Shown here one piece after another: positions 1-55,774 of a DNA stretch of 64,000 bases. The translations under genes and the position numbers were made by a program. Source of the DNA: the human T2T-CHM13v2.0 reference genome, Homo sapiens; contig CP068257.2 of assembly GCA_009914755.4 (NCBI GenBank), positions 9,376,001-9,440,000 of the forward strand, given 5' to 3'. The stretch's first letter is position 1. The number at the start of each line of letters is the position of its first letter. Under the pieces are notes generated by a model that saw nothing but the letters and a program-made list of their open reading frames with translations, was not told the origin of the DNA and did no database searches.

Positions 1-776
<776 letters not shown>

Positions 777-826
777 CTAAGACAACCGTGGGAACCACTG
801 TGACGGGAGAAACCGCTCGCGCCTAG

Positions 827-2232
<1,406 letters not shown>

Positions 2233-3639
2233 CGCATGCGCATTGGCTGAGCCGACTCACGCTCCACTCCTGACAGATAGGCTGCGTCCCCTTTAAATAT
2301 CGCCACCGCCGCGCGGCGGCCGCGATGCTCCTGCTGCCGCCCCGGCGTCGGCTGTGTCCTGGGTCCTGTTTGGGGCGGCGTGGGAGCGGGGGCCGCGGGG
2401 GTCTCGTCGTGTCACAGGCCCAAACCCCCAGGGCTCCTGTCCTCAGGACCTGCTTGAGCCGATTTCCAGCGAGGGAGGGGGAGCTTCAGGACGCCTGCTG
2501 TGTGCTCCGGACTCCCGTTGAGATCCCATTCTGGCCCCCTCCGAGTGACATAGGATGGGCTCACCACATGTGGTCAGGCCGGCAGGGCCTCGCTGCAGCA
2601 CACAATGACCCCATAGGTCTCAAGGCCTAGTGTCAGAGCAAATTCACCGATCCATCACCCCTCTGCCTCCTTCCTCCTTTGAAAGAGCAGTGGCCTGCCC
2701 CGCTTGTAAAAGCCCAGGGGTTCCGGAAAGCCGAACGCGCTTTACAGGACAACTGCAAAGAGGAACAGAGGCGAAACCCAGGGGGAGACCATGTGACCAC
2801 GCGTGGCACTGGCCAATCCCACAGCAGTTGGTGTTAATGTATGTCACCGGAGGCATACGGGGCGACGGCGAAACGAAGGGTGGGGTCCAGGCATATGCCG
2901 GTGGAAGGGGCAAACGGGTGACATTTCCGTCAATGCCAAGGAAAATCAAACAACACCTGGGAACCGTGGGGTAGGGGGGCTTCCTGTGCCTGACCTAAGC
3001 CACGTTTTCAAATGCCTACCAGAGGAGCAAAGAGGTTTCTGCCAATTTCGCAACACCCCCAATCCTCCACCGACCTGGTAGCCCTGACGCAACTTCGGCT
3101 GGTACAAACCCACAGAGAGTGGGAAAGAAACACACAGAGAGTGAGAGACAGAGAGAGAAGAGAGAATGGGAGACACACACAGACACACACGCACACACAC
3201 GCAGAGTCATACAGCAGAGGCATTGAAACACACACTCCCAGGCAACCCCTGAGGATCCGGGGTTCTGCTCTGGAGGAGAACGACCCTCGGGTGAGAGAGC
3301 GGCCCAGGAGCACGCAGGCCGACCAGTCCTCGAGATCACTGACCGCGGCGCGACTTTTGGCGAGACTCACCCCAACAAACACCGTCCGTGCAGGCCTGAG
3401 GCTGGGATCCCGTGCTGCTTCCCCGGTCTCCACCTGGGGTTTCATCTTCATAGTCGGCCCTTTGCGACTGCTGGCATCAGGAGAGTTTCCCTTCGAGCCC
3501 GTGGAGAGGTGAGACCGGAGCCTCAGAGCCTCGATATCCAAGCACTGCCACGGAGGGCTCCTGCTCTGCAAAGCCTCGGGGACTGGTTTCTAAGACAACC
3601 GTGGGAACCACTGTGACCGGAGAAACCGCTGGGGCCTCG
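2233..3639. repeat. Satellite monomer m2 (1407 bp; variant a)
   Basis: Anchor-to-anchor spacing; variant signature 'caaattcaccgatccatcacccctctgcctccttcc'. Confidence 0.9.
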
Positions 3640-3706
3640 CGCATGCGCATTGGCTGAGCCGACTCACGCTCCACTCCTGACAGATAGGCTGCGTCCCCTT
3701 TAAATA
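3639..3706 (+). promoter_or_regulatory. Promoter-like motif cluster (representative, monomer m3): NRF-1-like palindrome GCGCATGCGC (3639-3648), inverted CCAAT/NF-Y-type ATTGG (3649-3653), TATA-like TTTAAATA (3699-3706). It recurs in every monomer at anchor-1 to anchor+66.
   Basis: The motifs are read directly from the sequence. The spacing (CCAAT about 50 bp upstream of TATA) fits a + strand Pol II core promoter. Function is inferred, not shown. Confidence 0.35.
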
Positions 3707-4203
3707 TTGCCACCGCCACGCGGCGGCCGCGATACTCCTGCTGCCGCCGCGGCAGCGGCTGTGTCCTGGGTCCTGTTTGGGGTGGCATGGGAGAGGGGAC
3801 CGCGGGTGTCTCGTCCTGTCCCAGGCCCAAACCCCCAGGGCTCCTGTCCTCAGGACCTGCTTGAGCCGACTTCCACCAAGGGAGGGGGAGCTTCAGGACG
3901 CCTGCTGTGTTCTCTGGACTCCCGTTGAGATCCCATTCTGGCCCCCTCCGAGTGACATAGGATGGGCTCACCACATGTGATCAGGCCGGCAGGGCCTCGC
4001 TGCAGCACACAATGACCCCATAGGTCTCAAGGCCTAGTGTCAGAGCAAACTCACTCATCCATCAGCCCTCTGCCTCCCTCCTCCTTTGAAAGTGCAGTGG
4101 CCTGCCCCGCTTGTAAAAGCCCAGGGGTTCGGGAAAGCCGAACGCGCTTTACAGGACAACTGCAAAGAGGAACAGAGGCGAAACCCAGGGGGAGACCATG
4201 TGA

Positions 4204-4224
4204 CCACGCGTGGCACTGGCCAAT
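4204..4224. promoter_or_regulatory. 10-bp perfect palindrome CCACGCGTGG (4204-4213, contains CACGCGTG and an MluI site) next to a forward CCAAT box (GGCCAATCC, 4218-4226); representative, recurs every monomer
   Basis: Read from the sequence. Variant-e monomers (m7, m21) carry a 1-bp deletion (GGCAATCC) that destroys the CCAAT box. Confidence 0.3.
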
Positions 4225-4520
4225 CCCACAGCAGTTGGTGTTAATGTGTGTCACCGGAGGCATACGGGGCGACGGCGAAATGAAGGGTGGGGTCCAGGGA
4301 TATGCCGGTGGAAGGGGGAAACGGGTGACATTTCCGTCAACGCCAAGGAAAAACAAACAACACCTGGGAACCGTGGGGTAGGGGGGCCTCCTGTGCCTGA
4401 CCCAAGCCACGTTTTCAAATGCCTACCAGAGGAGCAAAGAGGTTTCGGCCAATTTCGCAACACCCCCAATCCTCCACCGACCTGGTAGCCCTGACGCAAC
4501 TTCGGCTGGTACAAACCCAC

Positions 4521-4642
4521 AGAGAGTGGGAAAGAAACACACAGAGAGTGAGAGACAGAGAGAGAAGAGAGAATGGGAGACACACACAGACACACACGCA
4601 CACACACGCAGAGTCATACAGCAGAGGCATTGAAACACACAC
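4521..4642. repeat. Compound imperfect microsatellite inside the monomer (representative, m3): purine tract (GAGAGTGAGAGACAGAGAGAGAAGAGAGAA) followed by (CA)n-rich tract; recurs every monomer with length polymorphism
   Basis: Read from the sequence. The CA tract length differs between variants (e.g. pure (AC)12 in m9 and m23). Confidence 0.9.
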
Positions 4643-5046
4643 TCCCAGGCAACCCCTGAGGATCCGGGGTTCTGCTCTGGAGGAGAACGACCCTCGGGTG
4701 AGAGAGCGGCCCAGGAGCACGCAGGCCGACCAGTCCTCGAGATCACTGACCGCGGCGCGACTTTTGGCGAGACTCACCCCAACAAACACCGTCCGTGCAG
4801 GCCTGAGGCTGGGATCCCGTGCTGCTTCCCCGGTCTCCACCTGGGGTTTCATCTTCATAGTCGGCCCTTTGCGACTGCTGGCATCAGGAGAGTTTCCCTT
4901 CGAGCCCGTGGAGAGGTGAGACCGGAGCCTCAGAGCCTCGATATCCAAGCACTGCCACGGAGGGCTCCTGCTCTGCAAAGCCTCGGGGACTGGTTTCTAA
5001 GACAACCGTGGGAACCACTGTGACCGGAGAAACCGCTGGGGCCTCG

Positions 5047-6455
<1,409 letters not shown>

Positions 6456-7869
6456 CGCATGCGCATTGGCTGAGCCGACTCACGCTCCACTCCTGACAGA
6501 TAGGCTGCGTCCCCTTTAAATATCGCCACCGCCGCGCGGCGGCAGCGATGCTCCTGCTGCCACCCCGGCAGCGCCTGTGTCCTGGGTCCTGTTTCAGGCG
6601 GCGTGGGAGAGGGGGCCACGGGTGTCTGTTCCTGTCCCAGGCCCAAACCCCCAGGGCTCCTGTCCTCAAGACCTGCTTGAGCCGACTTCCACCAAGGGAG
6701 GGGGAGCTTCAGGACGCCTGCTGTGTTCTCTGGACTCCCGTTGAGATCCCATTCTGCCCCCTCCGAGTGACATAGGATGGGCTCACCACACGTGATCAGG
6801 CCGGCAGGGCCTCGCTGCAGCACAAAATGATCCCATAGGTCTCAAGGCCTAGTGTCAGAGCAAATTCACTCATCCATCAGCCCTCTGCCTCCCTCCTCCT
6901 TTGAAAGAGCAGTGGCCTACCCCGCTTGTAAAAGCCCAGGGGTTCCGGAAAGCCGACTGTGCTTAACAGGACAACTGCAAAGAGGAAGAGTGGCGAAATC
7001 CAGGGGGAGACCATGTGACCACGCGTGGCACTGGCCAATCCCACAGCAGTTGGTGTTAACGTGTGACACCGGAGGCAAACGGGGCGACGGCGAAACGAAG
7101 GGTGGGGTCCATGCACGTGCCGGTGGAAGGGGGAAACGGCTGACCTTTCCGTCAATGCCAAGGAAAATCAAACAACACCTGGGACCCGGAGGGTGTGGGG
7201 GACGTCTGTGCCTGACCCAAGCCACGTTTTCAAATGCCTACCAGAGGAACAAAGATGTTTCTGCCAATTTTGCAACACCCCCAATCCTCCACCGACCTCG
7301 TAGCCCTGAAGCAACTTCGGCTGGCATAAACCCACAAAGAGTGGGAAAGAAACACACAGAGACTGAGAGACAGAGGGAGAAGAGAGAATGGGAGACAAAC
7401 ACACAGACACACACACACACACGCAGAGTCATACAGCAGAGGCATTGAAACACACACACCCAGGCAACCCCTGAGGCTCCGAGGCTCCGGGGTTCTGCTC
7501 TGGAGGAGAACGACCCTCGGGTGAGAGAGCAGCCCAGGGGCACGCAGGCCGACCCGTCCTCGAGATCACGGACAGCGGCGCGACTTTTGGCGAGACTCAC
7601 CCCAACAAACACCGTCCGTGCAGGCCTGAGGCTGGGATCCCGTGCTGCTTCCCCGGTCTCCACCTGGGGTTTCATCTTCATAGTCGGCCCTTTGCGACTG
7701 CTGGCATCAGGAGAGTTTCCCTTCGAGCCAGTGGAGAGGTGAGACCGGAGCCTCAGAGCCTCGATACCCAAGCACTGCCACGGAGGGCTCCTGCTCTGCA
7801 AAGCCTCGGGGACTGGTTTCTAAGACAACCGTGGGAACCACTGTGACCCGAGAAACCGCTGGGGCCTCG
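6456..7869. repeat. Satellite monomer m5 (1414 bp; variant c; carries 8-bp tandem duplication)
   Basis: Anchor-to-anchor spacing; extra 'gaggctcc' copy at 7481-7488. Confidence 0.9.
7473..7488. repeat. 8-bp tandem duplication GAGGCTCC x2 in m5 (its duplicate is in m19 at 27194-27209); this accounts for the 1414-bp monomer length
   Basis: Other monomers have a single GAGGCTCC at this position. Confidence 0.85.
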
Positions 7870-7936
7870 CGCATGCGCATTGGCTGAGCCGACTCACGCT
7901 CCACTCCTGACAGATAGGCTGCGTCCCCTTTAAATA
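7869..7936 (+). promoter_or_regulatory. Same promoter-like cluster in monomer m6: GCGCATGCGC 7869-7878, ATTGG 7879-7883, TTTAAATA 7929-7936. A CpG-dense segment follows, with a CTCF-like CCGCGCGGCGGCCG at 7946-7959.
   Basis: Read from the sequence; the motif consensi are established knowledge. Confidence 0.35.
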
Positions 7937-9276
7937 TCGCCACCGCCGCGCGGCGGCCGCGGTGCTCCTGCTGCCGCCCCGGCGTCGGCTGTGTCCTGGG
8001 TCCTGTTTGGGGCGGCGTGGGAGCGGGGGCCACGGGTATCTGGTCTTGTCCCAGGCCCAAACCCCCAGGGCTCCTGTCCTCAGGACCTGCTTGAGCCGAC
8101 TTCCACCAAGGGAGGGGGAGCTTCAGGACGCCTGCTGTGTTCTCTGGACTCCCGTTGAGATCCCATTCTGGCCCCCTCCGAGTGACATAGGATGGGCTCA
8201 CCACACGTGGTCAGGCCGGCAGGGCCTCGCTGCAGCACAAAATGATCCCATACGTCTCAAGGCCTAGTGTCAGAGCAAATTCACTCATACATCAGCCATC
8301 TGCCTCCCTCCTCCTTTGAAAGAGCAGTGGCCTACCCCGCTTGTAAAAGCCCAGGGGTTAAGGAAAGCCGACCGTGCTTAAAAGGACAACTGCAAAGAGG
8401 AAGAGAGGCGAAATCCAGGGGGAGACCATGTGACCACGCGTGGCACTGGCCAATCCCACAGCAGTTGGTGTTAACGTGTGACACCGGAGGCAAACGGGGC
8501 GACGGCGAAACGAAGGGTGGGGTCCATGCACGTGCCGGTGGAAGGGGGAAACGGGTGACCTTTCCATCAATGCCAAGGAAAATCAAACAACACCTGGGAC
8601 CCGGAGGGTGTGGGGGACGTCTGTGCCTGACCCAAGCCACGTTTTCAAATGCCTACCAGAGGAACAAAGATGTTTCTGCCAATTTCGCAACACCCCCAAT
8701 CCTCCACCGACCTCGTAGCCCTGAAGCAACTTCGGCTGGCACAAACCCACAAAGAGTGGGAAAGAAACACACAGAGACTGAGAGACAGAGGGAGAAGAGA
8801 GAATGGGAGACAAACACACAGACACACACACACACACGCAGAGTCATACAGCACAGTCATTGAAACACACACCCCCAGGCAACCCCTGAGGCTCGGGGGT
8901 TCTGCTCTGGAGGAGAACGACCCTCGGGTGAGAGAGCAGCCCAGGGGCACGCAGGCCGACCCGTCCTCGAGATCACGGACAGCGGCGCGACTTTTGGCGA
9001 GACTCACCCCAACAAACACCGTCCGTGCAGGCCTGAGGCTGGGATCCCGTGCTGCTTCCCCGGTCTCCACCTGGGGTTTCATCTTCATAGTCGGCCCTTT
9101 GCGACTGCTGGCATCAGGAGAGTTTCCCTTCGAGCCAGTGGAGAGGTGAGACCGGAGCCTCAGAGCCTCGATACCCAAGCACTGCCACGGAGGGCTCCTG
9201 CTCTGCAAAGCCTCGGGGACTGGTTTCTAAGACAACCGTGGGAACCACTGTGACCCGAGAAACCGCTGGGGCCTCG
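7870..9276. repeat. Satellite monomer m6 (1407 bp; variant d)
   Basis: Anchor-to-anchor spacing. Confidence 0.9.
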
Positions 9277-10687
<1,411 letters not shown>

Positions 10688-12096
10688 CGCATGCGCATTG
10701 GCTGAGCCGACTCACGCTCCACTCCTGACAGATAGGCTGCGTCCCCTTTAAATATCGCCATCGCCGCGCGGCGGCCGCGATGCTCCTGCTGCCGCCCCGG
10801 CGTCGGCTGTGTCCTGGGTCCTGTTTGGGGTGGCGTGGGAGCGGGGGCCGCGGGTGTCTCGTCGTGTCACAGGCCCAAACCCCCAGGGCTCCTGTCCTCA
10901 GGACCTACTTGAGCCGATTTCCAGCGAGGGAGGGGGAGCTTCAGGACGCCTGCTGTGTGCTCCGGACTCCCGTTGAAATCCCATTCTGGCCCCCTCCGAG
11001 TGACATAGGATGGGCTCACCACATCTGGTCAGGCCGGCAGGGCCTCGCTGCAGCACAGAATGACCCCATAGGTCTCAAGGCCTAGTGTCAGAGCAAATTC
11101 ACTCATCCATCAGCCCTCTGCCTCCCTCCTCCTTTGAAAGAGCAGTGGCCTGCCCCGCTTGTAAAAGCCCAGGGGTTCCGGAAAGCCGAACGCGCTTTAC
11201 AGGACAACTGCAAAGAGGAACAGAGGCGAAATCCAGGGGGAGACCATGTGACCACGCGTGGCACTGGCCAATCCCACAGCAGTTGGTGTTAATGTGTGTC
11301 ACCGGAGGCATACGGGGCGACGGCGAAACGAAGGGTGGGGTCCATGCACGTGCCGGTGGAAGGGGGAAACGGGTGACCTTTCCGTCAATGCCAAGGAAAA
11401 TCAAACAACACCTGGGACCCGGAGGGTGTGGGGGACGTCTGTGCCTGACCCAAGCCACGTTTCCAAATGCCTACCAGAGGAAGAAAGATGTTTCTGCCAA
11501 TTTCGCAACACCCCCAATCCTCCACCGACCTCGTAGCCCTGAAGCAACTTCGGCTGGCACAAACCCACAAAGAGTGGGAAAGAAACACACAGAGACTGAG
11601 AGACAGAGGGAGAAGAGAGAATGGGAGACACACACACAGAGACACACGCACACACACGCAGAGTCATACAGCAGAGGCATTGAAACACACACGCCCAGGC
11701 AACCCCTGAGGCTCCGGGGTTCTGCTCTGGAGGAGAACGACCCTCGGGTGAGAGAGCAGCCCAGGGGCACGCAGGCCGACCCGTCCTCGAGATCACAGAC
11801 AGCGGAAAGGCTTTTGGCGAGACTCACCCCAACCAACACCGTCCGTGCAGGCCTGAGGCTGGGATCCCGTGCTGCTTCCCCCGTCTCCACCTGGGGTTTC
11901 ATCTTCATAGTCGGCCCTTTGCGACTGCTGGCATCAGGAGAGTTTCCCTTCGAGCCCATGGAGAGGTGAGACCGGAGCCTCAGAGCCTCGATACCCAAGC
12001 ACTGCCACGGAGGGATCCTGCTCTGCAAAGCCTCGGGGACTGGTTTCTAAGACAACCGTGGGAACCACTGTGACCGGAGAAACCGCTGGGGCCTCG
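10688..12096. repeat. Satellite monomer m8 (1409 bp; variant f)
   Basis: Anchor-to-anchor spacing. Confidence 0.9.
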
Positions 12097-13510
<1,414 letters not shown>

Positions 13511-14917
13511 CGCATGCGCATTGGCTGAGCCGACTCACGCTCCACTCCTGACAGATAGGCTGCGTCCCCTTTAAATATCGCCACCGCCGCGCGGCGGCCG
13601 CGATGCTCCTGCTGCCGCCCCGGCGTCGGCTGTGTCCTGGGTCCTGCTTGGGGCGGCGTGGGAGCAGGGGCCGCGGGTGTCTCGTCGTGTCACAGGCCCA
13701 AACCCCCAGGGCTCCTGTCCTCAGGACCTGCTTGAGCCGATTTCCAGCGAGGGAGGGGGAGCTTCAGGACGCCTGCTGTGTGCTCCGGACTCCCGTTGAG
13801 ATCCCATTCTGGCCCCCTCCGAGTGACATAGGATGGGCTCACCACATCTGCTCAGGCCGGCAGGGCCTCGCTGCAGCACACAATGACCCCATAGGTCTCA
13901 AGGCCTAGTGTCAGAGCAAATTCACCGATCCATCACCCCTCTGCCTCCTTCCTCCTTTGAAAGAGCAGTGGCCTGCCCCGCTTGTAAAAGCCCAGGGGTT
14001 CCGGAAAGCCGAACGCGCTTTACAGGACAACTGCAAAGAGGAACAGAGGCGAAACCCAGGGGGAGACCATGTGACCACGCGTGGCACTGGCCAATCCCAC
14101 AGCAGTTGGTGTTAATGTATGTCACCGGAGGCATACGGGGCGACGGCGAAACGAAGGGTGGGGTCCAGGCATATGCCGGTGGAAGGGGCAAACGGGTGAC
14201 ATTTCCGTCAATGCCAAGGAAAATCAAACAACACCTGGGAACCGTGGGGTAGGGGGGCTTCCTGTGCCTGACCTAAGCCACGTTTTCAAATGCCTACCAG
14301 AGGAGCAAAGAGGTTTCTGCCAATTTCGCAACACCCCCAATCCTCCACCGACCTGGTAGCCCTGACGCAACTTCGGCTGGTACAAACCCACAGAGAGTGG
14401 GAAAGAAACACACAGAGAGTGAGAGACAGAGAGAGAAGAGAGAATGGGAGACACACACAGACACACACGCACACACACGCAGAGTCATACAGCAGAGGCA
14501 TTGAAACACACACTCCCAGGCAACCCCTGAGGATCCGGGGTTCTGCTCTGGAGGAGAACGACCCTCGGGTGAGAGAGCGGCCCAGGAGCACGCAGGCCGA
14601 CCAGTCCTCGAGATCACTGACCGCGGCGCGACTTTTGGCGAGACTCACCCCAACAAACACCGTCCGTGCAGGCCTGAGGCTGGGATCCCGTGCTGCTTCC
14701 CCGGTCTCCACCTGGGGTTTCATCTTCATAGTCGGCCCTTTGCGACTGCTGGCATCAGGAGAGTTTCCCTTCGAGCCCGTGGAGAGGTGAGACCGGAGCC
14801 TCAGAGCCTCGATATCCAAGCACTGCCACGGAGGGCTCCTGCTCTGCAAAGCCTCGGGGACTGGTTTCTAAGACAACGGTGGGAACCACTGTGACCGGAG
14901 AAACCGCTGGGGCCTCG
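13511..14917. repeat. Satellite monomer m10 (1407 bp; variant a)
   Basis: Anchor-to-anchor spacing. Confidence 0.9.
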
Positions 14918-16325
<1,408 letters not shown>

Positions 16326-17732
16326 CGCATGCGCATTGGCTGAGCCGACTCACGCTCCACTCCTGACAGATAGGCTGCGTCCCCTTTAAATATCGCCACC
16401 GCCGCGCGGCGGCCGCGATGCTCCTGCTGCCGCCCCGGCAGCGCCTGTGTCCTGGGTCCTGTTTCAGGCGGCGTGGGAGAGGGGGCCACGGGTGTCTGTT
16501 CCTGTCCCAGGCCCAAACCCCCAGGGCTCCTGTCCTCAAGACCTGCTTGAGCCGACTTCCACCAAGGGAGGGGGAGCTTCAGGACGCCTGCTGTGTTCTC
16601 TGGACTCCCGTTGAGATCCCATTCTGGCCCCCTCCGAGTGACATAGGATGGGCTCACCACACGTGATCAGGCCGGCAGGGCCTCGCTGCAGCACAAAATG
16701 ATCCCATAGGTCTCAAGGCCTAGTGTCAGAGCAAATTCACTCATCCATCAGCCCTCTGCCTCCCTCCTCCTTTGAAAGAGCAGTGGCCTACCCCGCTTGT
16801 AAAAACCCAGGGGTTCCGGAAAGCCGACTGTGCTTAACAGGACAACTGCAAAGAGGAAGAGTGGCGAAATCCAGGGGGAGACCATGTGACCACGCGTGGC
16901 ACTGGCCAATCCCACAGCAGTTGGTGTTAACGTGTGACACCGGAGGCAAACGGGGCGACGGCGAAACGAAGGGTGGGGTCCATGCACGTGCCGGTGGAAG
17001 GGGGAAACGGCTGACCTTTCCGTCAATGCCAAGGAAAATCAAACAACACCTGGGACCCGGAGGGTGTGGGGGACGTCTGTGCCTGACCCAAGCCACGTTT
17101 TCAAATGCCTACCAGAGGAACAAAGATGTTTCTGCCAATTTTGCAACACCCCCAATCCTCCACCGACCTCGTAGCCCTGAAGCAACTTCGGCTGGCACAA
17201 ACCCACAAAGAGTGGGAAAGAAACACACAGAGACTGAGAGACAGAGGGAGAAGAGAGAATGGGAGACAAACACACAGACACACACACACACACGCAGAGT
17301 CATACAGCAGAGGCATTGAAACACACACACCCAGGCAACCCCTGAGGCTCGGGGGTTCTGCTCTGGAGGAGAACGACCCTCGGGTGAGAGAGCAGCCCAG
17401 GGGCACGCAGGCCGACCCGTCCTCGACATCACGGACAGCGGCGCGACTTTTGGCGAGACTCACCCCAACAAACACCGTCCGTGCAGGCCTGAGGCTGGGA
17501 TCCCGTGCTGCTTCCCCGGTCTCCACCTGGGGTTTCATCTTCATAGTCGGCCCTTTGCGACTGCTGGCATCAGGAGAGTTTCCCTTCGAGCCCGTGGAGA
17601 GGTGAGACCGGAGCCTCAGAGCCTCGATACCCAAGCACTGCCACGGAGGGCTCCTGCTCTGCAAAGCCTCGGGGACTGGTTTCTAAGACAACCGTGGGAA
17701 CCACCGTGACCCGAGAAACCGCTGGGGCCTCG
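16326..17732. repeat. Satellite monomer m12 (1407 bp; variant c)
   Basis: Anchor-to-anchor spacing. Confidence 0.9.
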
Positions 17733-19139
17733 CGCATGCGCATTGGCTGAGCCGACTCACGCTCCACTCCTGACAGATAGGCTGCGTCCCCTTTAAATAT
17801 CGCCACCGCCGCGCGGCGGCCGCGGTGCTCCTGCTGCCGCCCCGGCGTCGGCTGTGTCCTGGGTCCTGTTTGGGGCGGCGTGGGAGCGGGGGCCACGGGT
17901 ATCTGGTCCTGTCCCAGGCCCAAACCCCCAGGGCTCCTGTCCTCAGGACCTGCTTGAGCCGACTTCCACCAAGGGAGGGGGAGCTTCAGGACGCCTGCTG
18001 TGTTCTCTGGACTCCCGTTGAGATCCCATTCTGGCCCCCTCCGAGTGACATAGGATGGGCTCACCACACGTGGTCAGGCCGGCAGGGCCTCGCTGCAGCA
18101 CAAAATGATCCCATACGTCTCAAGGCCTAGTGTCAGAGCAAATTCACTCATACATCAGCCATCTGCCTCCCTCCTCCTTTGAAAGAGCAGTGGCCTACCC
18201 CGCTTGTAAAAGCCCAGGGGTTCCGGAAAGCCGACCGTGCTTAAAAGGACAACTGCAAAGAGGAAGAGAGGCGAAATCCAGGGGGAGACCATGTGACCAC
18301 GCGTGGCACTGGCCAATCCCACAGCAGTTGGTGTTAACGTGTGACACCGGAGGCAAACGGGGCGACGGCGAAACGAAGGGTGGGGTCCATGCACGTGCCG
18401 GTGGAAGGGGGAAACGGGTGACCTTTCCATCAATGCCAAGGAAAATCAAACAACACCTGGGACCCGGAGGGTGTGGGGGACGTCTGTGCCTGACCCAAGC
18501 CACGTTTTCAAATGCCTACCAGAGGAACAAAGATGTTTCTGCCAATTTCGCAACACCCCCAATCCTCCACCGACCTCGTAGCCCTGAAGCAACTTCGGCT
18601 GGCACAAACCCACAAAGAGTGGGAAAGAAACACACAGAGACTGAGAGACAGAGGGAGAAGAGAGAATGGGAGACAAACACACAGACACACACACACACAC
18701 GCAGAGTCATACAGCACAGTCATTGAAACACACACCCCCAGGCAACCCCTGAGGCTCGGGGGTTCTGCTCTGGAGGAGAACGACCCTCGGGTGAGAGAGC
18801 AGCCCAGGGGCACGCAGGCCGACCCGTCCTCGAGATCACGGACAGCGGCGCGACTTTTGGCGAGACTCACCCCAACAAACACCGTCCGTGCAGGCCTGAG
18901 GCTGGGATCCCGTGCTGCTTCCCCGGTCTCCACCTGGGGTTTCATCTTCATAGTCGGCCCTTTGCGACTGCTGGCATCAGGAGAGTTTCCCTTCGAGCCC
19001 GTGGAGAGGTGAGACCGGAGCCTCAGAGCCTCGATACCCAAGCACTGCCACGGAGGGCTCCTGCTCTGCAAAGCCTCGGGGACTGGTTTCTAAGACAACC
19101 GTGGGAACCACCGTGACCCGAGAAACCGCTGGGGCCTCG
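17733..19139. repeat. Satellite monomer m13 (1407 bp; variant d)
   Basis: Anchor-to-anchor spacing; essentially identical to m14. Confidence 0.9.
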
Positions 19140-20546
19140 CGCATGCGCATTGGCTGAGCCGACTCACGCTCCACTCCTGACAGATAGGCTGCGTCCCCTT
19201 TAAATATCGCCACCGCCGCGCGGCGGCCGCGGTGCTCCTGCTGCCGCCCCGGCGTCGGCTGTGTCCTGGGTCCTGTTTGGGGCGGCGTGGGAGCGGGGGC
19301 CACGGGTATCTGGTCCTGTCCCAGGCCCAAACCCCCAGGGCTCCTGTCCTCAGGACCTGCTTGAGCCGACTTCCACCAAGGGAGGGGGAGCTTCAGGACG
19401 CCTGCTGTGTTCTCTGGACTCCCGTTGAGATCCCATTCTGGCCCCCTCCGAGTGACATAGGATGGGCTCACCACACGTGGTCAGGCCGGCAGGGCCTCGC
19501 TGCAGCACAAAATGATCCCATACGTCTCAAGGCCTAGTGTCAGAGCAAATTCACTCATACATCAGCCATCTGCCTCCCTCCTCCTTTGAAAGAGCAGTGG
19601 CCTACCCCGCTTGTAAAAGCCCAGGGGTTCCGGAAAGCCGACCGTGCTTAAAAGGACAACTGCAAAGAGGAAGAGAGGCGAAATCCAGGGGGAGACCATG
19701 TGACCACGCGTGGCACTGGCCAATCCCACAGCAGTTGGTGTTAACGTGTGACACCGGAGGCAAACGGGGCGACGGCGAAACGAAGGGTGGGGTCCATGCA
19801 CGTGCCGGTGGAAGGGGGAAACGGGTGACCTTTCCATCAATGCCAAGGAAAATCAAACAACACCTGGGACCCGGAGGGTGTGGGGGACGTCTGTGCCTGA
19901 CCCAAGCCACGTTTTCAAATGCCTACCAGAGGAACAAAGATGTTTCTGCCAATTTCGCAACACCCCCAATCCTCCACCGACCTCGTAGCCCTGAAGCAAC
20001 TTCGGCTGGCACAAACCCACAAAGAGTGGGAAAGAAACACACAGAGACTGAGAGACAGAGGGAGAAGAGAGAATGGGAGACAAACACACAGACACACACA
20101 CACACACGCAGAGTCATACAGCACAGTCATTGAAACACACACCCCCAGGCAACCCCTGAGGCTCGGGGGTTCTGCTCTGGAGGAGAACGACCCTCGGGTG
20201 AGAGAGCAGCCCAGGGGCACGCAGGCCGACCCGTCCTCGAGATCACGGACAGCGGCGCGACTTTTGGCGAGACTCACCCCAACAAACACCGTCCGTGCAG
20301 GCCTGAGGCTGGGATCCCGTGCTGCTTCCCCGGTCTCCACCTGGGGTTTCATCTTCATAGTCGGCCCTTTGCGACTGCTGGCATCAGGAGAGTTTCCCTT
20401 CGAGCCAGTGGAGAGGTGAGACCGGAGCCTCAGAGCCTCGATACCCAAGCACTGCCACGGAGGGCTCCTGCTCTGCAAAGCCTCGGGGACTGGTTTCTAA
20501 GACAACCGTGGGAACCACTGTGACCCGAGAAACCGCTGGGGCCTCG
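19140..20546. repeat. Satellite monomer m14 (1407 bp; variant d)
   Basis: Anchor-to-anchor spacing; all translated ORFs identical to m13 at a +1407 offset. Confidence 0.9.
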
Positions 20547-21953
<1,407 letters not shown>

Positions 21954-23360
21954 CGCATGCGCATTGGCTGAGCCGACTCACGCTCCACTCCTGACAGATA
22001 GGCTGCGTCCCCTTTAAATATCGCCACCGCCGCGCGGCGGCCGCGATGCTCCTGCTGCCGCCCCGGCGTCGGCTGTGTCCTGGGTCCTGTTTGGGGCGGC
22101 GTGGGAGCGGGGGCCGCGGGTGTCTCGTCGTGTCACAGGCCCAAACCCCCAGGGCTCCTGTCCTCAGGACCTGCTTGAGCCGATTTCCAGCGAGGGAGGG
22201 GGAGCTTCAGGACGCCTGCTGTGTGCTCCGGACTCCCGTTGAGATCCCATTCTGGCCCCCTCCGAGTGACATAGGATGGGCTCACCACATGTGGTCAGGC
22301 CGGCAGGGCCTCGCTGCAGCACACAATGACCCCATAGGTCTCAAGGCCTAGTGTCAGAGCAAATTCACCGATCCATCACCCCTCTGCCTCCTTCCTCCTT
22401 TGAAAGAGCAGTGGCCTGCCCCGCTTGTAAAAGCCCAGGGGTTCCGGAAAGCCGAACGCGCTTTACAGGACAACTGCAAAGAGGAACAGAGGCGAAACCC
22501 AGGGGGAGACCATGTGACCACGCGTGGCACTGGCCAATCCCACAGCAGTTGGTGTTAATGTATGTCACCGGAGGCATACGGGGCGACGGCGAAACGAAGG
22601 GTGGGGTCCAGGCATATGCCGGTGGAAGGGGCAAACGGGTGACATTTCCGTCAATGCCAAGGAAAATCAAACAACACCTGGGAATCGTGGGGTAGGGGGG
22701 CTTCCTGTGCCTGACCTAAGCCACGTTTTCAAATGCCTACCAGAGGAGCAAAGAGGTTTCTGCCAATTTCGCAACACCCCCAATCCTCCACCGACCTGGT
22801 AGCCCTGACGCAACTTCGGCTGGTACAAACCCACAGAGAGTGGGAAAGAAACACACAGAGAGTGAGAGACAGAGAGAGAAGAGAGAATGGGAGACACACA
22901 CAGACACACACGCACACACACGCAGAGTCATACAGCAGAGGCATTGAAACACACACTCCCAGGCAACCCCTGAGGATCCGGGGTTCTGCTCTGGAGGAGA
23001 ACGACCCTCGGGTGAGAGAGCGGCCCAGGAGCACGCAGGCCGACCAGTCCTCGAGATCACTGACCGCGGCGCGACTTTTGGCGAGACTCACCCCAACAAA
23101 CACCGTCCGTGCAGGCCTGAGGCTGGGATCCCGTGCTGCTTCCCCGGTCTCCACCTGGGGTTTCATCTTCATAGTCGGCCCTTTGCGACTGCTGGCATCA
23201 GGAGAGTTTCCCTTCGAGCCCGTGGAGAGGTGAGACCGGAGCCTCAGAGCCTCGATATCCAAGCACTGCCACGGAGGGCTCCTGCTCTGCAAAGCCTCGG
23301 GGACTGGTTTCTAAGACAACCGTGGGAACCACTGTGACCGGAGAAACCGCTGGGGCCTCG
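21954..23360. repeat. Satellite monomer m16 (1407 bp; variant a; duplicate of m2)
   Basis: Anchor-to-anchor spacing; offset of +19721 from m2. Confidence 0.9.
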
Positions 23361-24767
23361 CGCATGCGCATTGGCTGAGCCGACTCACGCTCCACTCCTG
23401 ACAGATAGGCTGCGTCCCCTTTAAATATTGCCACCGCCACGCGGCGGACGCGATACTCCTGCTGCCGCCGCGGCAGCGGCTGTGTCCTGGGTCCTGTTTG
23501 GGGTGGCATGGGAGAGGGGACCGCGGGTGTCTCGTCCTGTCCCAGGCCCAAACCCCCAGGGCTCCTGTCCTCAGGACCTGCTTGAGCCGACTTCCACCAA
23601 GGGAGGGGGAGCTTCAGGACGCCTGCTGTGTTCTCTGGACTCCCGTTGAGATCCCATTCTGGCCCCCTCCGAGTGACATAGGATGGGCTCACCACATGTG
23701 ATCAGGCCGGCAGGGCCTCGCTGCAGCACACAATGACCCCATAGGTCTCAAGGCCTAGTGTCAGAGCAAACTCACTCATCCATCAGCCCTCTGCCTCCCT
23801 CCTCCTTTGAAAGTGCAGTGGCCTGCCCCGCTTGTAAAAGCCCAGGGGTTCGGGAAAGCCGAACGCGCTTTACAGGACAACTGCAAAGAGGAACAGAGGC
23901 GAAACCCAGGGGGAGACCATGTGACCACGCGTGGCACTGGCCAATCCCACAGCAGTTGGTGTTAATGTGTGTCACCGGAGGCATACGGGGCGACGGCGAA
24001 ATGAAGGGTGGGGTCCAGGGATATGCCGGTGGAAGGGGGAAACGGGTGACATTTCCGTCAACGCCAAGGAAAAACAAACAACACCTGGGAACCGTGGGGT
24101 AGGGGGGCCTCCTGTGCCTGACCCAAGCCACGTTTTCAAATGCCTACCAGAGGAGCAAAGAGGTTTCGGCCAATTTCGCAACACCCCCAATCCTCCACCG
24201 ACCTGGTAGCCCTGACGCAACTTCGGCTGGTACAAACCCACAGAGAGTGGGAAAGAAACACACAGAGAGTGAGAGACAGAGAGAGAAGAGAGAATGGGAG
24301 ACACACACAGACACACACGCACACACACGCAGAGTCATACAGCAGAGGCATTGAAACACACACTCCCAGGCAACCCCTGAGGATCCGGGGTTCTGCTCTG
24401 GAGGAGAACGACCCTCGGGTGAGAGAGCGGCCCAGGAGCACGCAGGCCGACCAGTCCTCGAGATCACTGACCGCGGCGCGACTTTTGGCGAGACTCACCC
24501 CAACAAACACCGTCCGTGCAGGCCTGAGGCTGGGATCCCGTGCTGCTTCCCCGGTCTCCACCTGGGGTTTCATCTTCATAGTCGGCCCTTTGCGACTGCT
24601 GGCATCAGGAGAGTTTCCCTTCGAGCCCGTGGAGAGGTGAGACCGGAGCCTCAGAGCCTCGATATCCAAGCACTGCCACGGAGGGCTCCTGCTCTGCAAA
24701 GCCTCGGGGACTGGTTTCTAAGACAACCGTGGGAACCACTGTGACCGGAGAAACCGCTGGGGCCTCG
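23361..24767. repeat. Satellite monomer m17 (1407 bp; variant b; duplicate of m3)
   Basis: Anchor-to-anchor spacing; offset of +19721 from m3. Confidence 0.9.
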
Positions 24768-26176
<1,409 letters not shown>

Positions 26177-27590
26177 CGCATGCGCATTGGCTGAGCCGAC
26201 TCACGCTCCACTCCTGACAGATAGGCTGCGTCCCCTTTAAATATCGCCACCGCCGCGCGGCGGCAGCGATGCTCCTGCTGCCACCCCGGCAGCGCCTGTG
26301 TCCTGGGTCCTGTTTCAGGCGGCGTGGGAGAGGGGGCCACGGGTGTCTGTTCCTGTCCCAGGCCCAAACCCCCAGGGCTCCTGTCCTCAAGACCTGCTTG
26401 AGTCGACTTCCACCAAGGGAGGGGGAGCTTCAGGACGCCTGCTGTGTTCTCTGGACTCCCGTTGAGATCCCATTCTGCCCCCTCCGAGTGACATAGGATG
26501 GGCTCACCACACGTGATCAGGCCGGCAGGGCCTCGCTGCAGCACAAAATGATCCCATAGGTCTCAAGGCCTAGTGTCAGAGCAAATTCACTCATCCATCA
26601 GCCCTCTGCCTCCCTCCTCCTTTGAAAGAGCAGTGGCCTACCCCGCTTGTAAAAGCCCAGGGGTTCCGGAAAGCCGACTGTGCTTAACAGGACAACTGCA
26701 AAGAGGAAGAGTGGCGAAATCCAGGGGGAGACCATGTGACCACGCGTGGCACTGGCCAATCCCACAGCAGTTGGTGTTAACGTGTGACACCGGAGGCAAA
26801 CGGGGCGACGGCGAAACGAAGGGTGGGGTCCATGCACGTGCCGGTGGAAGGGGGAAACGGCTGACCTTTCCGTCAATGCCAAGGAAAATCAAACAACACC
26901 TGGGACCCGGAGGGTGTGGGGGACGTCTGTGCCTGACCCAAGCCACGTTTTCAAATGCCTACCAGAGGAACAAAGATGTTTCTGCCAATTTTGCAACACC
27001 CCCAATCCTCCACCGACCTCGTAGCCCTGAAGCAACTTCGGCTGGCACAAACCCACAAAGAGTGGGAAAGAAACACACAGAGACTGAGAGACAGAGGGAG
27101 AAGAGAGAATGGGAGACAAACACACAGACACACACACACACACGCAGAGTCATACAGCAGAGGCATTGAAACACACACACCCAGGCAACCCCTGAGGCTC
27201 CGAGGCTCCGGGGTTCTGCTCTGGAGGAGAACGACCCTCGGGTGAGAGAGCAGCCCAGGGGCACGCAGGCCGACCCGTCCTCGAGATCACGGACAGCGGC
27301 GCGACTTTTGGCGAGACTCACCCCAACAAACACCGTCCGTGCAGGCCTGAGGCTGGGATCCCGTGCTGCTTCCCCGGTCTCCACCTGGGGTTTCATCTTC
27401 ATAGTCGGCCCTTTGCGACTGCTGGCATCAGGAGAGTTTCCCTTCGAGCCAGTGGAGAGGTGAGACCGGAGCCTCAGAGCCTCGATACCCAAGCACTGCC
27501 ACGGAGGGCTCCTGCTCTGCAAAGCCTCGGGGACTGGTTTCTAAGACAACCGTGGGAACCACTGTGACCCGAGAAACCGCTGGGGCCTCG
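26177..27590. repeat. Satellite monomer m19 (1414 bp; variant c; duplicate of m5 including the 8-bp duplication)
   Basis: Anchor-to-anchor spacing; 'gaggctccgaggctcc' at 27194-27209. Confidence 0.9.
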
Positions 27591-28997
27591 CGCATGCGCA
27601 TTGGCTGAGCCGACTCACGCTCCACTCCTGACAGATAGGCTGCGTCCCCTTTAAATATCGCCACCGCCGCGCGGCGGCCGCGGTGCTCCTGCTGCCGCCC
27701 CGGCGTCGGCTGTGTCCTGGGTCCTGTTTGGGGCGGCGTGGGAGCGGGGGCCACGGGTATCTGGTCTTGTCCCAGGCCCAAACCCCCAGGGCTCCTGTCC
27801 TCAGGACCTGCTTGAGCCGACTTCCACCAAGGGAGGGGGAGCTTCAGGACGCCTGCTGTGTTCTCTGGACTCCCGTTGAGATCCCATTCTGGCCCCCTCC
27901 GAGTGACATAGGATGGGCTCACCACACGTGGTCAGGCCGGCAGGGCCTCGCTGCAGCACAAAATGATCCCATACGTCTCAAGGCCTAGTGTCAGAGCAAA
28001 TTCACTCATACATCAGCCATCTGCCTCCCTCCTCCTTTGAAAGAGCAGTGGCCTACCCCGCTTGTAAAAGCCCAGGGGTTAAGGAAAGCCGACCGTGCTT
28101 AAAAGGACAACTGCAAAGAGGAAGAGAGGCGAAATCCAGGGGGAGACCATGTGACCACGCGTGGCACTGGCCAATCCCACAGCAGTTGGTGTTAACGTGT
28201 GACACCGGAGGCAAACGGGGCGACGGCGAAACGAAGGGTGGGGTCCATGCACGTGCCGGTGGAAGGGGGAAACGGGTGACCTTTCCATCAATGCCAAGGA
28301 AAATCAAACAACACCTGGGACCCGGAGGGTGTGGGGGACGTCTGTGCCTGACCCAAGCCACGTTTTCAAATGCCTACCAGAGGAACAAAGATGTTTCTGC
28401 CAATTTCGCAACACCCCCAATCCTCCACCGACCTCGTAGCCCTGAAGCAACTTCGGCTGGCACAAACCCACAAAGAGTGGGAAAGAAACACACAGAGACT
28501 GAGAGACAGAGGGAGAAGAGAGAATGGGAGACAAACACACAGACACACACACACACACGCAGAGTCATACAGCACAGTCATTGAAACACACACCCCCAGG
28601 CAACCCCTGAGGCTCGGGGGTTCTGCTCTGGAGGAGAACGACCCTCGGGTGAGAGAGCAGCCCAGGGGCACGCAGGCCGACCCGTCCTCGAGATCACGGA
28701 CAGCGGCGCGACTTTTGGCGAGACTCACCCCAACAAACACCGTCCGTGCAGGCCTGAGGCTGGGATCCCGTGCTGCTTCCCCGGTCTCCACCTGGGGTTT
28801 CATCTTCATAGTCGGCCCTTTGCGACTGCTGGCATCAGGAGAGTTTCCCTTCGAGCCAGTGGAGAGGTGAGACCGGAGCCTCAGAGCCTCGATACCCAAG
28901 CACTGCCACGGAGGGCTCCTGCTCTGCAAAGCCTCGGGGACTGGTTTCTAAGACAACCGTGGGAACCACTGTGACCCGAGAAACCGCTGGGGCCTCG
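27591..28997. repeat. Satellite monomer m20 (1407 bp; variant d; duplicate of m6)
   Basis: Anchor-to-anchor spacing. Confidence 0.9.

Positions 28998-30408
<1,411 letters not shown>

Positions 30409-31817: not shown

Positions 31818-33231
<1,414 letters not shown>

Positions 33232-34640: not shown

Positions 34641-36048
<1,408 letters not shown>

Positions 36049-39839: not shown

Positions 39840-43094
<3,255 letters not shown>

Positions 43095-45911: not shown

Positions 45912-47320
<1,409 letters not shown>

Positions 47321-48726: not shown

Positions 48727-51547
<2,821 letters not shown>

Positions 51548-52953: not shown

Positions 52954-55774
<2,821 letters not shown>

What the first reader, a model, noticed from the sequence alone, without database searches (positions are those of the whole stretch)
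3639..3790. Each monomer carries a canonical-looking Pol II promoter module (NRF-1 palindrome + CCAAT + TATA) followed by a CpG-dense segment
A perfect GCGCATGCGC (NRF-1 consensus YGCGCAYGCGCR) abuts an inverted CCAAT (ATTGGCTGAG, NF-Y-type), and TTTAAATA lies about 50 bp downstream. The roughly 90 bp after it are extremely CpG-rich (CGCCACCGCCGCGCGGCGGCCGCG...). This is the architecture of promoter-bearing macrosatellites (DXZ4 and D4Z4 are known examples of transcribed macrosatellite units), so each repeat may initiate + strand transcription of a non-coding RNA. The 101-codon ORF that would start here is not conserved (ATG is ATA or GTG in many copies).
Basis: partly seen in the sequence, partly recalled or inferred. 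Interest (0 to 1): 0.6.

Follow-up and report, generated by a model that had tools for sequence, protein, structure and literature searches.

The report
SST1/NBL2 macrosatellite internal promoter core

Summary
The window is 45 tandem ~1408-bp units of the SST1/NBL2 (subfamily sf1) macrosatellite. Published human SST1 primers match the + strand and give the published 219- and 317-bp amplicons, and these amplicons enclose the finding. Every unit carries an NRF1 palindrome fused to an inverted CCAAT, TTTAAATA 46 bp further on, and then a NotI-containing CpG cluster. This stretch is the least variable part of the unit. GCGCATGCGCATTGG is nearly invariant in diverged SST1 copies and exact in a chimpanzee/bonobo sf1 sequence. 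The TATA-like element is weaker: it is TTTAAAGA or TTCAAAGA in the diverged copies.

NBL2 monomers were shown in 2018 to have promoter activity that is repressed by DNA methylation. Active SST1 copies show divergent PRO-seq peaks. The only characterised transcript, TNBL, is antisense, which I map to the window's minus strand. No plus-strand RNA was seen on Northern blots.

My reading is that this is the methylation-gated, probably bidirectional, NRF1/NF-Y CpG-island core of the SST1 unit. What remains unpublished in the library I searched is the assignment of the promoter to these motifs and a mapped TSS. Interest is low to moderate.

The parts
1..64000 (+). SST1/NBL2 (sf1) macrosatellite array: 45 head-to-tail units of about 1408 bp. 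The + strand is the 'sense' orientation used in the literature.
   Evidence: Motif spacing is 1406-1414 bp. The consensus is 1409 bp and units are 94.6-97.9% identical to it. Published SST1 primers match the + strand with the published amplicon sizes.
3578..3894 (+). The 317-bp region used in the literature for SST1/NBL2 bisulfite sequencing. It encloses the whole finding.
   Evidence: The C-to-T converted + strand matches primers GGGGATTGGTGTTTAAGATA and AAAACTCCCCCTCCCTTAATAA. The amplicon is 317 bp in 28 units.
3606..3824 (+). The 219-bp SST1 ChIP amplicon from the literature.
   Evidence: AACCACTGTGACGGGAGAAA is exact in 16 units and the reverse complement of CTGGGACAGGACGAGACAC is exact in 19. 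The amplicon is 219 bp.
3638..3649 (.). NRF1 palindrome CGCGCATGCGCA, the only NRF1 consensus match in the unit. It holds 3 CpGs, so binding is expected to be sensitive to methylation.
   Evidence: It is perfect in 27/45 units. Its CpGs are retained in 88-96% of diverged SST1 copies and the site is exact in the Pan sf1 probe.
3649..3653 (-). CCAAT box: ATTGG on the + strand, CAGCCAATGCG on the - strand. It overlaps the NRF1 12-mer by 1 nt.
   Evidence: ATTGGCTGAG is present in 44/45 units. The strict RRCCAATSR consensus is not met.
3654..3698 (.). 45-bp spacer. It is almost invariant within this array but diverged in other SST1 subfamilies.
   Evidence: Within-array divergence is 0.000-0.006. 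Identity in diverged copies is 0.82-0.88.
3699..3706 (.). TATA-like element: TTTAAATA on the + strand, TATTTAAA on the - strand. Each is a 7/8 match to TATAWAWR.
   Evidence: Present in 45/45 units. It is TTTAAAGA or TTCAAAGA in diverged copies. No strict TATA match exists anywhere in the unit.
3707..3796 (.). CpG cluster containing the NotI site (3723-3730) that is used as the methylation marker for NBL2 in cancer studies.
   Evidence: 10-16 CpG per 90 bp and consensus observed/expected 1.0. NotI is present in 40/45 units. Literature.
3612..3617 (-). Candidate minus-strand initiator GTCACA (BBCABW), with the A opposite position 3614, about 30 nt beyond the NRF1 centre on the - strand. This is an inference only.
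   Evidence: It lies in a block that is 92-98% conserved in diverged copies.
3732..4037 (+). Position of the non-conserved 101-codon ORF (start codon is ATA in this copy). Judged non-coding.

Best explanation
The feature is the regulatory core of the SST1/NBL2 (sf1) macrosatellite unit. It is a CpG-island-type promoter/enhancer element built around a methylation-sensitive NRF1 palindrome fused to an NF-Y-type CCAAT box. In the sf1 subfamily a TATA-like element and the NotI-containing CpG cluster follow it.

Shown: the window is SST1/NBL2; the module is present in every unit; the NRF1/CCAAT core is conserved across subfamilies and in Pan, with its CpGs retained.

From the literature: whole monomers have promoter activity; DNA methylation is the dominant repressor, with H3K9me3 and histone deacetylation also contributing; demethylation yields the multi-unit, non-polyadenylated antisense lncRNA TNBL; active SST1 copies show divergent polymerase peaks.

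Inferred: this module is the site of that promoter activity. NRF1 can bind only when the site is unmethylated, which would explain why demethylation is required. Initiation is bidirectional or mainly on the minus strand in the arrays, for example near the conserved Inr at consensus position 276 or further on. It is not TATA-directed + strand initiation. Because neither strand has a polyadenylation signal, transcripts read through several units.
For: Identity: primers and amplicon sizes; NotI site in 40/45 units; the GA-then-CA start of each unit; 91% identity to the published Pan sf1 probe; a PRDM9 13-mer in the consensus, as reported for sf1.

Module is real and non-random.

Least variable 68-bp window of the unit: the 15 lowest-divergence windows start at consensus 301-315, and non-CpG divergence is 0.002 against a median of 0.028.

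Conservation: 19 diverged copies (68-91% identity) keep GCGCATGCGCATTGG nearly invariant while the adjacent spacers drop to 0.82 identity. CpGs at consensus 300, 302, 308 and 322 are retained in 88-96% of copies, against many unit CpGs below 50%. The Pan sequence has the palindrome, ATTGG and TTTAAATA exact.

CpG-island criteria are met over roughly consensus 1-580.

Function (literature): monomer promoter activity, dependence on AZA/TSA/DKO treatment, and an H3K9ac gain at NBL2 loci on AZA/TSA treatment; divergent PRO-seq peaks in active SST1 copies; per-repeat periodic demethylation on the chr19 array.

Position rules: NRF1 and NF-Y activate from upstream of the core promoter and repress from downstream of the TSS.

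No AATAAA or ATTAAA on either strand.
Against: No TSS has been mapped in NBL2; RACE failed. The reporter assays used whole 1.4-kb monomers, so the promoter could lie elsewhere in the unit.

A second block at consensus 860-940 also retains its CpGs and is conserved. It holds the palindrome CCACGCGTGG and a forward CCAAT.

The 301-320 bin is conserved (0.95) but not uniquely so; several other bins reach 0.95-0.98. My diverged copies were selected through an anchor 40 bp upstream, which may inflate conservation nearby.

18 of 45 units have an imperfect palindrome, so not every unit is under constraint.

The NRF1 and CCAAT sites overlap by 1 nt, so both factors probably cannot occupy one unit at the same time (inference).

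The centromeric sf1 arrays were reported as transcriptionally inactive in CHM13.

The orientation assignment rests on published primers, a verbal description and a probe sequence, not on a deposited TNBL sequence.
Confidence: 0.6

Rival explanations
1. One reading: a unidirectional, TATA-directed Pol II promoter in each unit. CCAAT sits at about -80 and TTTAAATA at about -30, and a + strand non-coding RNA starts near 3729-3732 inside the NotI/CpG cluster.
For: The geometry on the + strand is canonical: CCAAT lies 46 bp upstream of TTTAAATA, and NRF1 and CCAAT fall in the zone where they activate. In a family of dispersed, truncated SST1 fragments the homology ends about 10 bp after the TATA-like element, so the module points outward into the flank. 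Active SST1 copies have peaks in both orientations.
Against: Strand-specific RT and Northern blots detected only antisense (minus-strand) RNA; antisense probes gave no signal. TTTAAATA is a 7/8 match on both strands. There is no BBCABW Inr near the predicted + TSS. The TATA-like element is degenerate in diverged copies while NRF1/CCAAT is kept.
Confidence: 0.2
2. The motifs are an inert relic. They were inherited from the retroelement-derived ancestor of SST1 and persist through array homogenisation and germline hypomethylation, not through function. The known promoter activity resides elsewhere in the unit, for example in the consensus 860-940 block, or outside the array.
For: The within-array invariance also covers the spacer, which is not conserved between subfamilies, so homogenisation explains part of the low variability. 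NBL2 is strongly hypomethylated in sperm, which by itself preserves CpGs. 40% of units carry a decayed palindrome. The sf1 arrays are silent in CHM13 and in normal tissue. On chr19, array transcription starts at an upstream HERVH.
Against: Dispersed single fragments, which are not homogenised within an array, keep the NRF1/CCAAT core and its CpGs while neighbouring bases change. The same is seen in the Pan sequence at 91% overall identity. Flanking transposable elements had no promoter activity, whereas the monomers did.
Confidence: 0.15
3. The element acts mainly as a site of open chromatin or recombination, or as an architectural site, rather than as a promoter of a functional RNA. Any transcription is a by-product.
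For: SST1-sf1 is the breakpoint of the common Robertsonian fusions and is proposed as a recombination hotspot. NBL2 loci sit at the perinucleolar region.
Against: The predicted PRDM9 13-mer lies about 220 bp upstream at consensus position 83, not in the module. No CTCF-like consensus was found in the unit. There is no direct evidence linking NRF1 or NF-Y to recombination here.
Confidence: 0.05

Closest known systems
SST1 / NBL2 / MER22 macrosatellite, subfamily sf1, and its lncRNA TNBL (Thoraval 1996; Nagai 1999; Samuelsson 2016; Dumbovic 2018; Hoyt 2022; de Lima 2025)
   Same: It is this element. It has the 1.4-kb unit, the GA/CA-rich unit start, the NotI site, the published primer sites and amplicon sizes, and the PRDM9 motif in the consensus. 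Internal promoter activity and methylation-dependent silencing have already been published.
   Different: Nothing differs structurally. What the literature I could search lacks is a motif-level map of the promoter. No paper co-mentions NRF1 with NBL2 or the SST1 repeat, and no TSS is reported.
DXZ4 (Xq23 macrosatellite)
   Same: A GC-rich tandem unit with an internal promoter and transcription on both strands. Its chromatin state switches with methylation (review).
   Different: From background knowledge, DXZ4 function centres on CTCF binding on the inactive X. No CTCF-like consensus was found in this unit. The unit here is 1.4 kb against 3 kb.
D4Z4 (4q35/10q26 macrosatellite)
   Same: A CpG-rich unit repressed by DNA methylation and hypomethylated in ICF syndrome together with NBL2. 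It has bidirectional transcripts that run through several units.
   Different: Each D4Z4 unit encodes the conserved DUX4 ORF. The 101-codon ORF here is not conserved and has no family match.
NRF1/NF-Y CpG-island (often bidirectional) gene promoters
   Same: A full NRF1 consensus plus a CCAAT pentamer in a CpG-island context. Both factors activate initiation from upstream positions. This fits the divergent PRO-seq peaks seen in active SST1 copies.
   Different: Housekeeping CpG islands are constitutively unmethylated, whereas this one is heavily methylated in somatic cells and present in hundreds of tandem copies. The two sites overlap by 1 nt.

Membership tests
SST1/NBL2 macrosatellite (sf1) | Tandem unit of about 1.4 kb, GC about 62% | tested here: met
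   45 units spaced 1406-1414 bp; consensus 1409 bp, GC 61%.
SST1/NBL2 macrosatellite (sf1) | Published human SST1 primer pairs bind and give the published product sizes (219 bp ChIP, 317 bp bisulfite) | tested here: met
   Exact matches in 16 and 19 units. Amplicons are 219 and 317 bp, on the + strand only.
SST1/NBL2 macrosatellite (sf1) | NotI site inside a CpG-rich internal region; unit starts with a GA-rich tract then (CA)n | tested here: met
   NotI in 40/45 units. GA-rich tract then CA repeat at consensus 1195-1271. Literature description.
SST1/NBL2 macrosatellite (sf1) | Sequence similarity to a published sf1 monomer | tested here: met
   90.9% identity over 1251 aligned bases to the chimpanzee/bonobo SST1-sf1 probe printed in PMC12657243. 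One human-contaminant metagenome contig is 99.7% identical to a window unit.
TATA-dependent Pol II core promoter (+ strand) | TATA box matching TATAWAWR about 30 bp upstream of the TSS | tested here: not met
   No strict match anywhere in the unit. TTTAAATA is a 7/8 match and is equally good on the minus strand. It is not conserved in diverged copies.
TATA-dependent Pol II core promoter (+ strand) | Initiator (BBCABW) at the predicted +1 | tested here: not met
   The only + strand Inr matches in consensus 200-470 are at 311 and 335; there is none near 388-396.
TATA-dependent Pol II core promoter (+ strand) | Mapped + strand transcription start site | not testable with these tools
   No expression data are available here. 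The literature reports only antisense RNA and failed RACE.
NRF1/NF-Y CpG-island promoter | NRF1 consensus YGCGCAYGCGCR | tested here: met
   CGCGCATGCGCA at consensus 300-311, once per unit. Perfect 10-mer in 27/45 units.
NRF1/NF-Y CpG-island promoter | NF-Y site (CCAAT with the RRCCAATSR context) | tested here: inconclusive
   The pentamer is present and conserved, and its flanks (AGCCAATGC) match 8 of 9 positions. The strict pattern is not matched.
NRF1/NF-Y CpG-island promoter | CpG-island composition (at least 200 bp, GC at least 0.5, observed/expected at least 0.6) | tested here: met
   Passing 200-bp windows merge over about consensus 1-583. The maximum observed/expected of 1.03 is in the window starting at consensus 227.
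NRF1/NF-Y CpG-island promoter | Factor occupancy and divergent initiation at the element | not testable with these tools
   Only indirect literature evidence: divergent PRO-seq peaks in active SST1 copies and an H3K9ac gain at NBL2 loci on AZA/TSA treatment.
D4Z4-type coding macrosatellite | Conserved ORF in each unit | tested here: not met
   Start codon intact in 31/45 units and changed to GTG in Pan. No Pfam hit and no codon-position bias.

The most novel reading that the evidence does not exclude
The fused NRF1/CCAAT site is the methylation-gated switch of SST1. In the male germline NBL2 is strongly hypomethylated. There, hundreds of tandem NRF1/NF-Y sites on chromosomes 13, 14 and 21 would become occupied and would create promoter-like open chromatin in every unit. 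This open chromatin, together with or independently of the PRDM9 motif 220 bp upstream, would help make SST1-sf1 the recombination hotspot behind Robertsonian translocations. In cancer, the same switch would turn on TNBL.
Probability: 0.08. Interest if true: 0.65.

Novelty: already known. Interest (0 to 1): 0.25.

Why it matters
SST1/NBL2 is clinically relevant in two ways. Its NotI site is a classic marker of hypomethylation in cancer and in ICF syndrome, and its acrocentric arrays are the breakpoints of the common Robertsonian translocations. That its units hold a methylation-silenced promoter is already established. What has not been mapped is the cis-element and the TSS. An early study dismissed NBL2 RNA for 'lack of a detectable promoter', and RACE later failed. 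The present analysis nominates a specific, conserved 15-bp NRF1/CCAAT core as the candidate. It lies inside the amplicons the field already uses. NRF1's known sensitivity to CpG methylation would explain why demethylation is required for expression. This is a useful annotation and a testable hypothesis, not a discovery of a new kind of element.

Tried and rejected
- **Tandem Repeats Finder:** it reported only the internal (AC)n and GA microsatellites, because its longest period is 500 bp. I defined the units from the motif spacing instead.
- **GTDB genome contigs:** a scan with an SST1 anchor found nothing. The same anchor found 86 contigs in metagenomes, which I take to be host DNA contamination.
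- **Rfam:** no match across two units at E up to 1.
- **Pfam:** no match on the 101-aa ORF. I rejected the coding reading.
- **Supplementary files:** the supplement of Dumbovic 2018 (TNBL primers and probes) and that of the gibbon SST1 paper (RepeatMasker-based consensus) are not held. The orientation of TNBL therefore had to be inferred from the same laboratory's earlier primers, the verbal description of the unit, and the de Lima probe.
- **Literature:** searches for NRF1 or NF-Y together with NBL2/SST1, and for follow-up work on TNBL, found no motif-level or TSS mapping.
- **Self-BLAST of the window:** it returned no rows after my filter. I replaced it with a direct fixed-offset comparison.
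- **Minus-strand TATA model, considered and rejected:** a TSS near consensus 340 driven by TATTTAAA would place NRF1 and CCAAT downstream of the TSS, where they repress initiation.
- **Strand-asymmetry cues:** polyadenylation signals were uninformative, with none on either strand.
Full report
**What is in the window**

The window is a uniform, GC-rich (about 60%) array. The 20-mer GCGCATGCGCATTGGCTGAG (up to 3 mismatches) occurs 45 times. All copies are on the + strand and are spaced 1406-1414 bp apart, against 0.02 expected by chance. CCCTTTAAATATYGCC also occurs 45 times. Slicing at these motifs gives 44 complete units with a 1409-bp consensus. Units are 94.6-97.9% identical to the consensus, and the median pairwise identity is 94.4%. 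Tandem Repeats Finder saw only the internal (AC)n and GA microsatellites, because its longest period is 500 bp.

**Identity**

The array is the SST1/NBL2 macrosatellite, 1.4-kb subfamily sf1.
- The human SST1 ChIP primers of Samuelsson et al. (PMC6924650, Table S3) match the + strand exactly in 16 units (forward) and 19 units (reverse). They give the published 219-bp product.
- Their bisulfite primers match the C-to-T converted + strand and give the published 317-bp product.
- NotI sites, the historical marker of NBL2, are present in 40/45 units.
- Each unit has a GA-rich tract followed by (CA)n, as described for NBL2.
- The consensus is 90.9% identical to the chimpanzee/bonobo SST1-sf1 probe printed in de Lima et al..
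- One metagenome contig, presumably human contamination, is 99.7% identical to a window unit.

**The observation**

In the flagged unit the coordinates are as follows:

| Feature | Window position |
|---|---|
| GCGCATGCGC | 3639-3648 |
| Full 12-mer NRF1 consensus | 3638-3649 |
| ATTGG (inverted CCAAT) | 3649-3653 |
| TTTAAATA | 3699-3706 |
| NotI site | 3723-3730 |

- Across units, TTTAAATA is exact in 45/45 and ATTGGCTGAG in 44/45. The palindrome is perfect in 27/45 units. Most variants are CpG transitions, with ACGCATGCGC in 13 units.
- Random sequences with the unit's dinucleotide composition contain an NRF1 10-mer in 0.28% of cases, one with an adjacent CCAAT in 0.01%, and a TATA-like 8-mer in 0.4%.
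- The 90 bp after the TATA-like element hold 10-16 CpG. Observed/expected is about 0.9-1.0, against 0.62 for the whole unit, so the segment is CpG-island-like.
- The 101-codon ORF exists in the consensus. Its start codon is ATG in 31 units, GTG in 8 and ATA in 6, and it is GTG in Pan. It has no Pfam match and no codon-position bias.
- Rfam finds nothing.

**Conservation within the array**

The 68-bp module (consensus 301-368) is the least variable window of the whole unit. The 15 lowest-divergence windows all start at consensus 301-315. Non-CpG divergence is 0.002 against a median of 0.028. One of about 20 independent windows must be the minimum, and homogenisation contributes to low variability, so on its own this is only suggestive.

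**Conservation between copies and species**

I used an anchor 40 bp upstream of the module, the forward bisulfite-primer site, to scan the sequence collections. GTDB genomes gave nothing. Metagenomes gave 86 contigs carrying SST1 copies.
- Nineteen distinct diverged copies (68-91% identical to the sf1 consensus over 265 bp) keep GCGCATGCGCATTGG nearly invariant. The spacers on either side change.
- Projecting 28 diverged alignments onto the consensus gives identity of 0.95 in bin 301-320, against 0.82 in both neighbouring bins. The CpGs at consensus 300, 302, 308 and 322 are retained in 88-96% of copies, whereas many unit CpGs are retained in under 50%.
- The Pan probe was not selected through my anchor. 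It has the palindrome, ATTGG and TTTAAATA exact at 91% overall identity.
- The TATA-like element is weaker evidence. It reads TTTAAAGA or TTCAAAGA in the diverged family, and its bin is only average at 0.88.

There are three caveats. Several other bins are equally conserved. A second block at consensus 860-940 also retains its CpGs. The anchor may bias conservation in its neighbourhood.

**What is already known**

- Dumbovic et al. 2018 (PMC6009586) showed that NBL2 is silent when methylated. It is transcribed after AZA treatment, in DNMT1/3B double-knockout cells and in LS174T cells, and TSA acts synergistically with a gain of H3K9ac.
- Ten cloned 1.4-kb monomers drove luciferase, the best only 3-fold below CMV, while flanking transposable elements did not.
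- The RNA, TNBL, is non-polyadenylated and nuclear, about 4, 10 and 13 kb long, and spans several units.
- RACE failed, so no TSS is known. [quoted passage not shown]
- Hoyt et al. reported that highly transcribed SST1 copies have two closely spaced PRO-seq peaks in opposite orientations, a promoter/enhancer signature, and that the centromeric arrays are inactive in CHM13.
- A placental methylome study saw per-repeat periodic demethylation on the chr19 array.
- NBL2 is strongly hypomethylated in sperm.
- No paper in the searchable library co-mentions NRF1 with NBL2 or the SST1 repeat, and no follow-up on TNBL maps its promoter.

**Direction of transcription**

TNBL is antisense. It was reverse-transcribed from the forward but not the reverse NBL2 oligo, and only sense probes hybridised. 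Three independent items place the literature's sense strand on the window's + strand:
- the same laboratory's forward primers;
- the de Lima sf1 probe.

I put this assignment at about 85%.

Sequence cues do not rescue the + strand model.
- No strict TATAWAWR match exists in the unit. TTTAAATA on the + strand and TATTTAAA on the - strand are both 7/8 matches.
- No Inr lies near the predicted + TSS.
- BBCABW matches on the minus strand lie at consensus 276, 229 and 208.
- A minus-strand TSS set by the TATA-like element, at about consensus 340, would place NRF1 and CCAAT downstream of it. There these factors repress initiation (Duttke et al. 2024).
- Initiation on either side of the NRF1/CCAAT core fits their upstream-activating preference.
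- Neither strand has a polyadenylation signal, which is consistent with multi-unit read-through.

**Most likely mechanism**

The fused NRF1/CCAAT site is the core of a CpG-island-type, probably bidirectional, promoter/enhancer carried by each SST1 unit. From background knowledge (Domcke et al. 2015), CpG methylation of the palindrome blocks NRF1. Arrays are therefore silent in somatic cells and fire when methylation is lost. This matches the published finding that DNA methylation is the dominant repressor. These last steps are inference, because no occupancy data or TSS data exist. The overlap of the two sites by 1 nt suggests that they compete rather than bind together.

**Verdict**

The window is a promoter-bearing macrosatellite. 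The proposed strand is wrong or at least unsupported, and the reliance on TATA is not justified.
- The phenomenon is already known.
- The residual value is a specific, testable nomination of the cis-element for a promoter whose position has never been mapped.

Noticed in passing
window 1339-13963 versus 21060-33684; also 47026-52022 versus 51253-56249: The array contains large internal duplications. A 12.6-kb block is at least 99% identical to a copy 19,721 bp (14 units) downstream, and a 5-kb block repeats at +4227 bp (3 units). Mean identity between units at lag 14 is 0.967, against 0.946 at lag 1, so there is higher-order structure within the array.
   Followed up: partly
consensus position 83; window 608, 2014, 6237, 10469 and others (25 sites, all on the + strand): The 13-mer PRDM9 motif CCNCCNTNNCCNC (CCCCCGTCTCCAC) sits about 220 bp upstream of the NRF1 site in 25 of 45 units and never on the minus strand. 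This agrees with the published claim that sf1 monomers carry a predicted PRDM9 site. The flagged unit itself lacks it.
   Followed up: partly
window 4199-4280 (consensus 860-940), repeated in each unit: There is a second conserved block that retains its CpGs. It holds the 10-bp palindrome CCACGCGTGG (43 copies in the window, containing an MluI site) 4 bp upstream of a forward CCAAT box, GGCCAATCC (35 copies). It is conserved in diverged copies (identity 0.92-0.93, CpG retention up to 0.93) and in the Pan probe. It is an alternative candidate for the unit's promoter or enhancer.
   Followed up: partly
L019, L021, L032, L041, L050, L053, L054, L073, L074, L086 (metagenome contigs): These contigs hold a family of paralogous dispersed SST1 fragments. 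Most are about 615 bp (consensus 1173 to 378); L054 extends further upstream. All end about 10 bp after the TATA-like element and continue into the same unrelated flank (TGAGAACTGACCCTCACATC...). The NRF1/CCAAT module therefore sits at the edge of the fragment and points into the flank. These may be the hypomethylated, highly transcribed 'monomeric' SST1 copies of Hoyt et al., but I could not test this.
   Followed up: partly
L001-L086: 86 contigs in public metagenome assemblies carry SST1 sequence, presumably host (human) DNA contamination. Many are about 1.4-1.5 kb and look like collapsed assemblies of the tandem unit. The same anchor found none in the GTDB species-representative genomes.
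   Followed up: no
window 5985-6019, 10216-10249, 13037-13072 and others (consensus 1195-1271): The GA-rich tract and the (AC)n microsatellite at the start of each unit vary in length between units, with AC runs of 15-18 repeats in some. This accounts for much of the 1406-1414 bp variation in unit length. The Pan sf1 probe lacks this region entirely, with deletions of consensus 1193-1274 and 1291-1365.
   Followed up: partly
window 3624-3629 region, minus strand (consensus 324-329), in each unit: On the minus strand a GTGAGT 5'-splice-site core (GCGTGAGTCGG) lies between the TATA-like element and the CCAAT box. A stronger GGTGAGT lies at consensus 27-33 on the minus strand; that pattern class is found 43 times on the minus strand of the window against 11 on the plus strand. 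Its relevance to TNBL processing is unknown.
   Followed up: no
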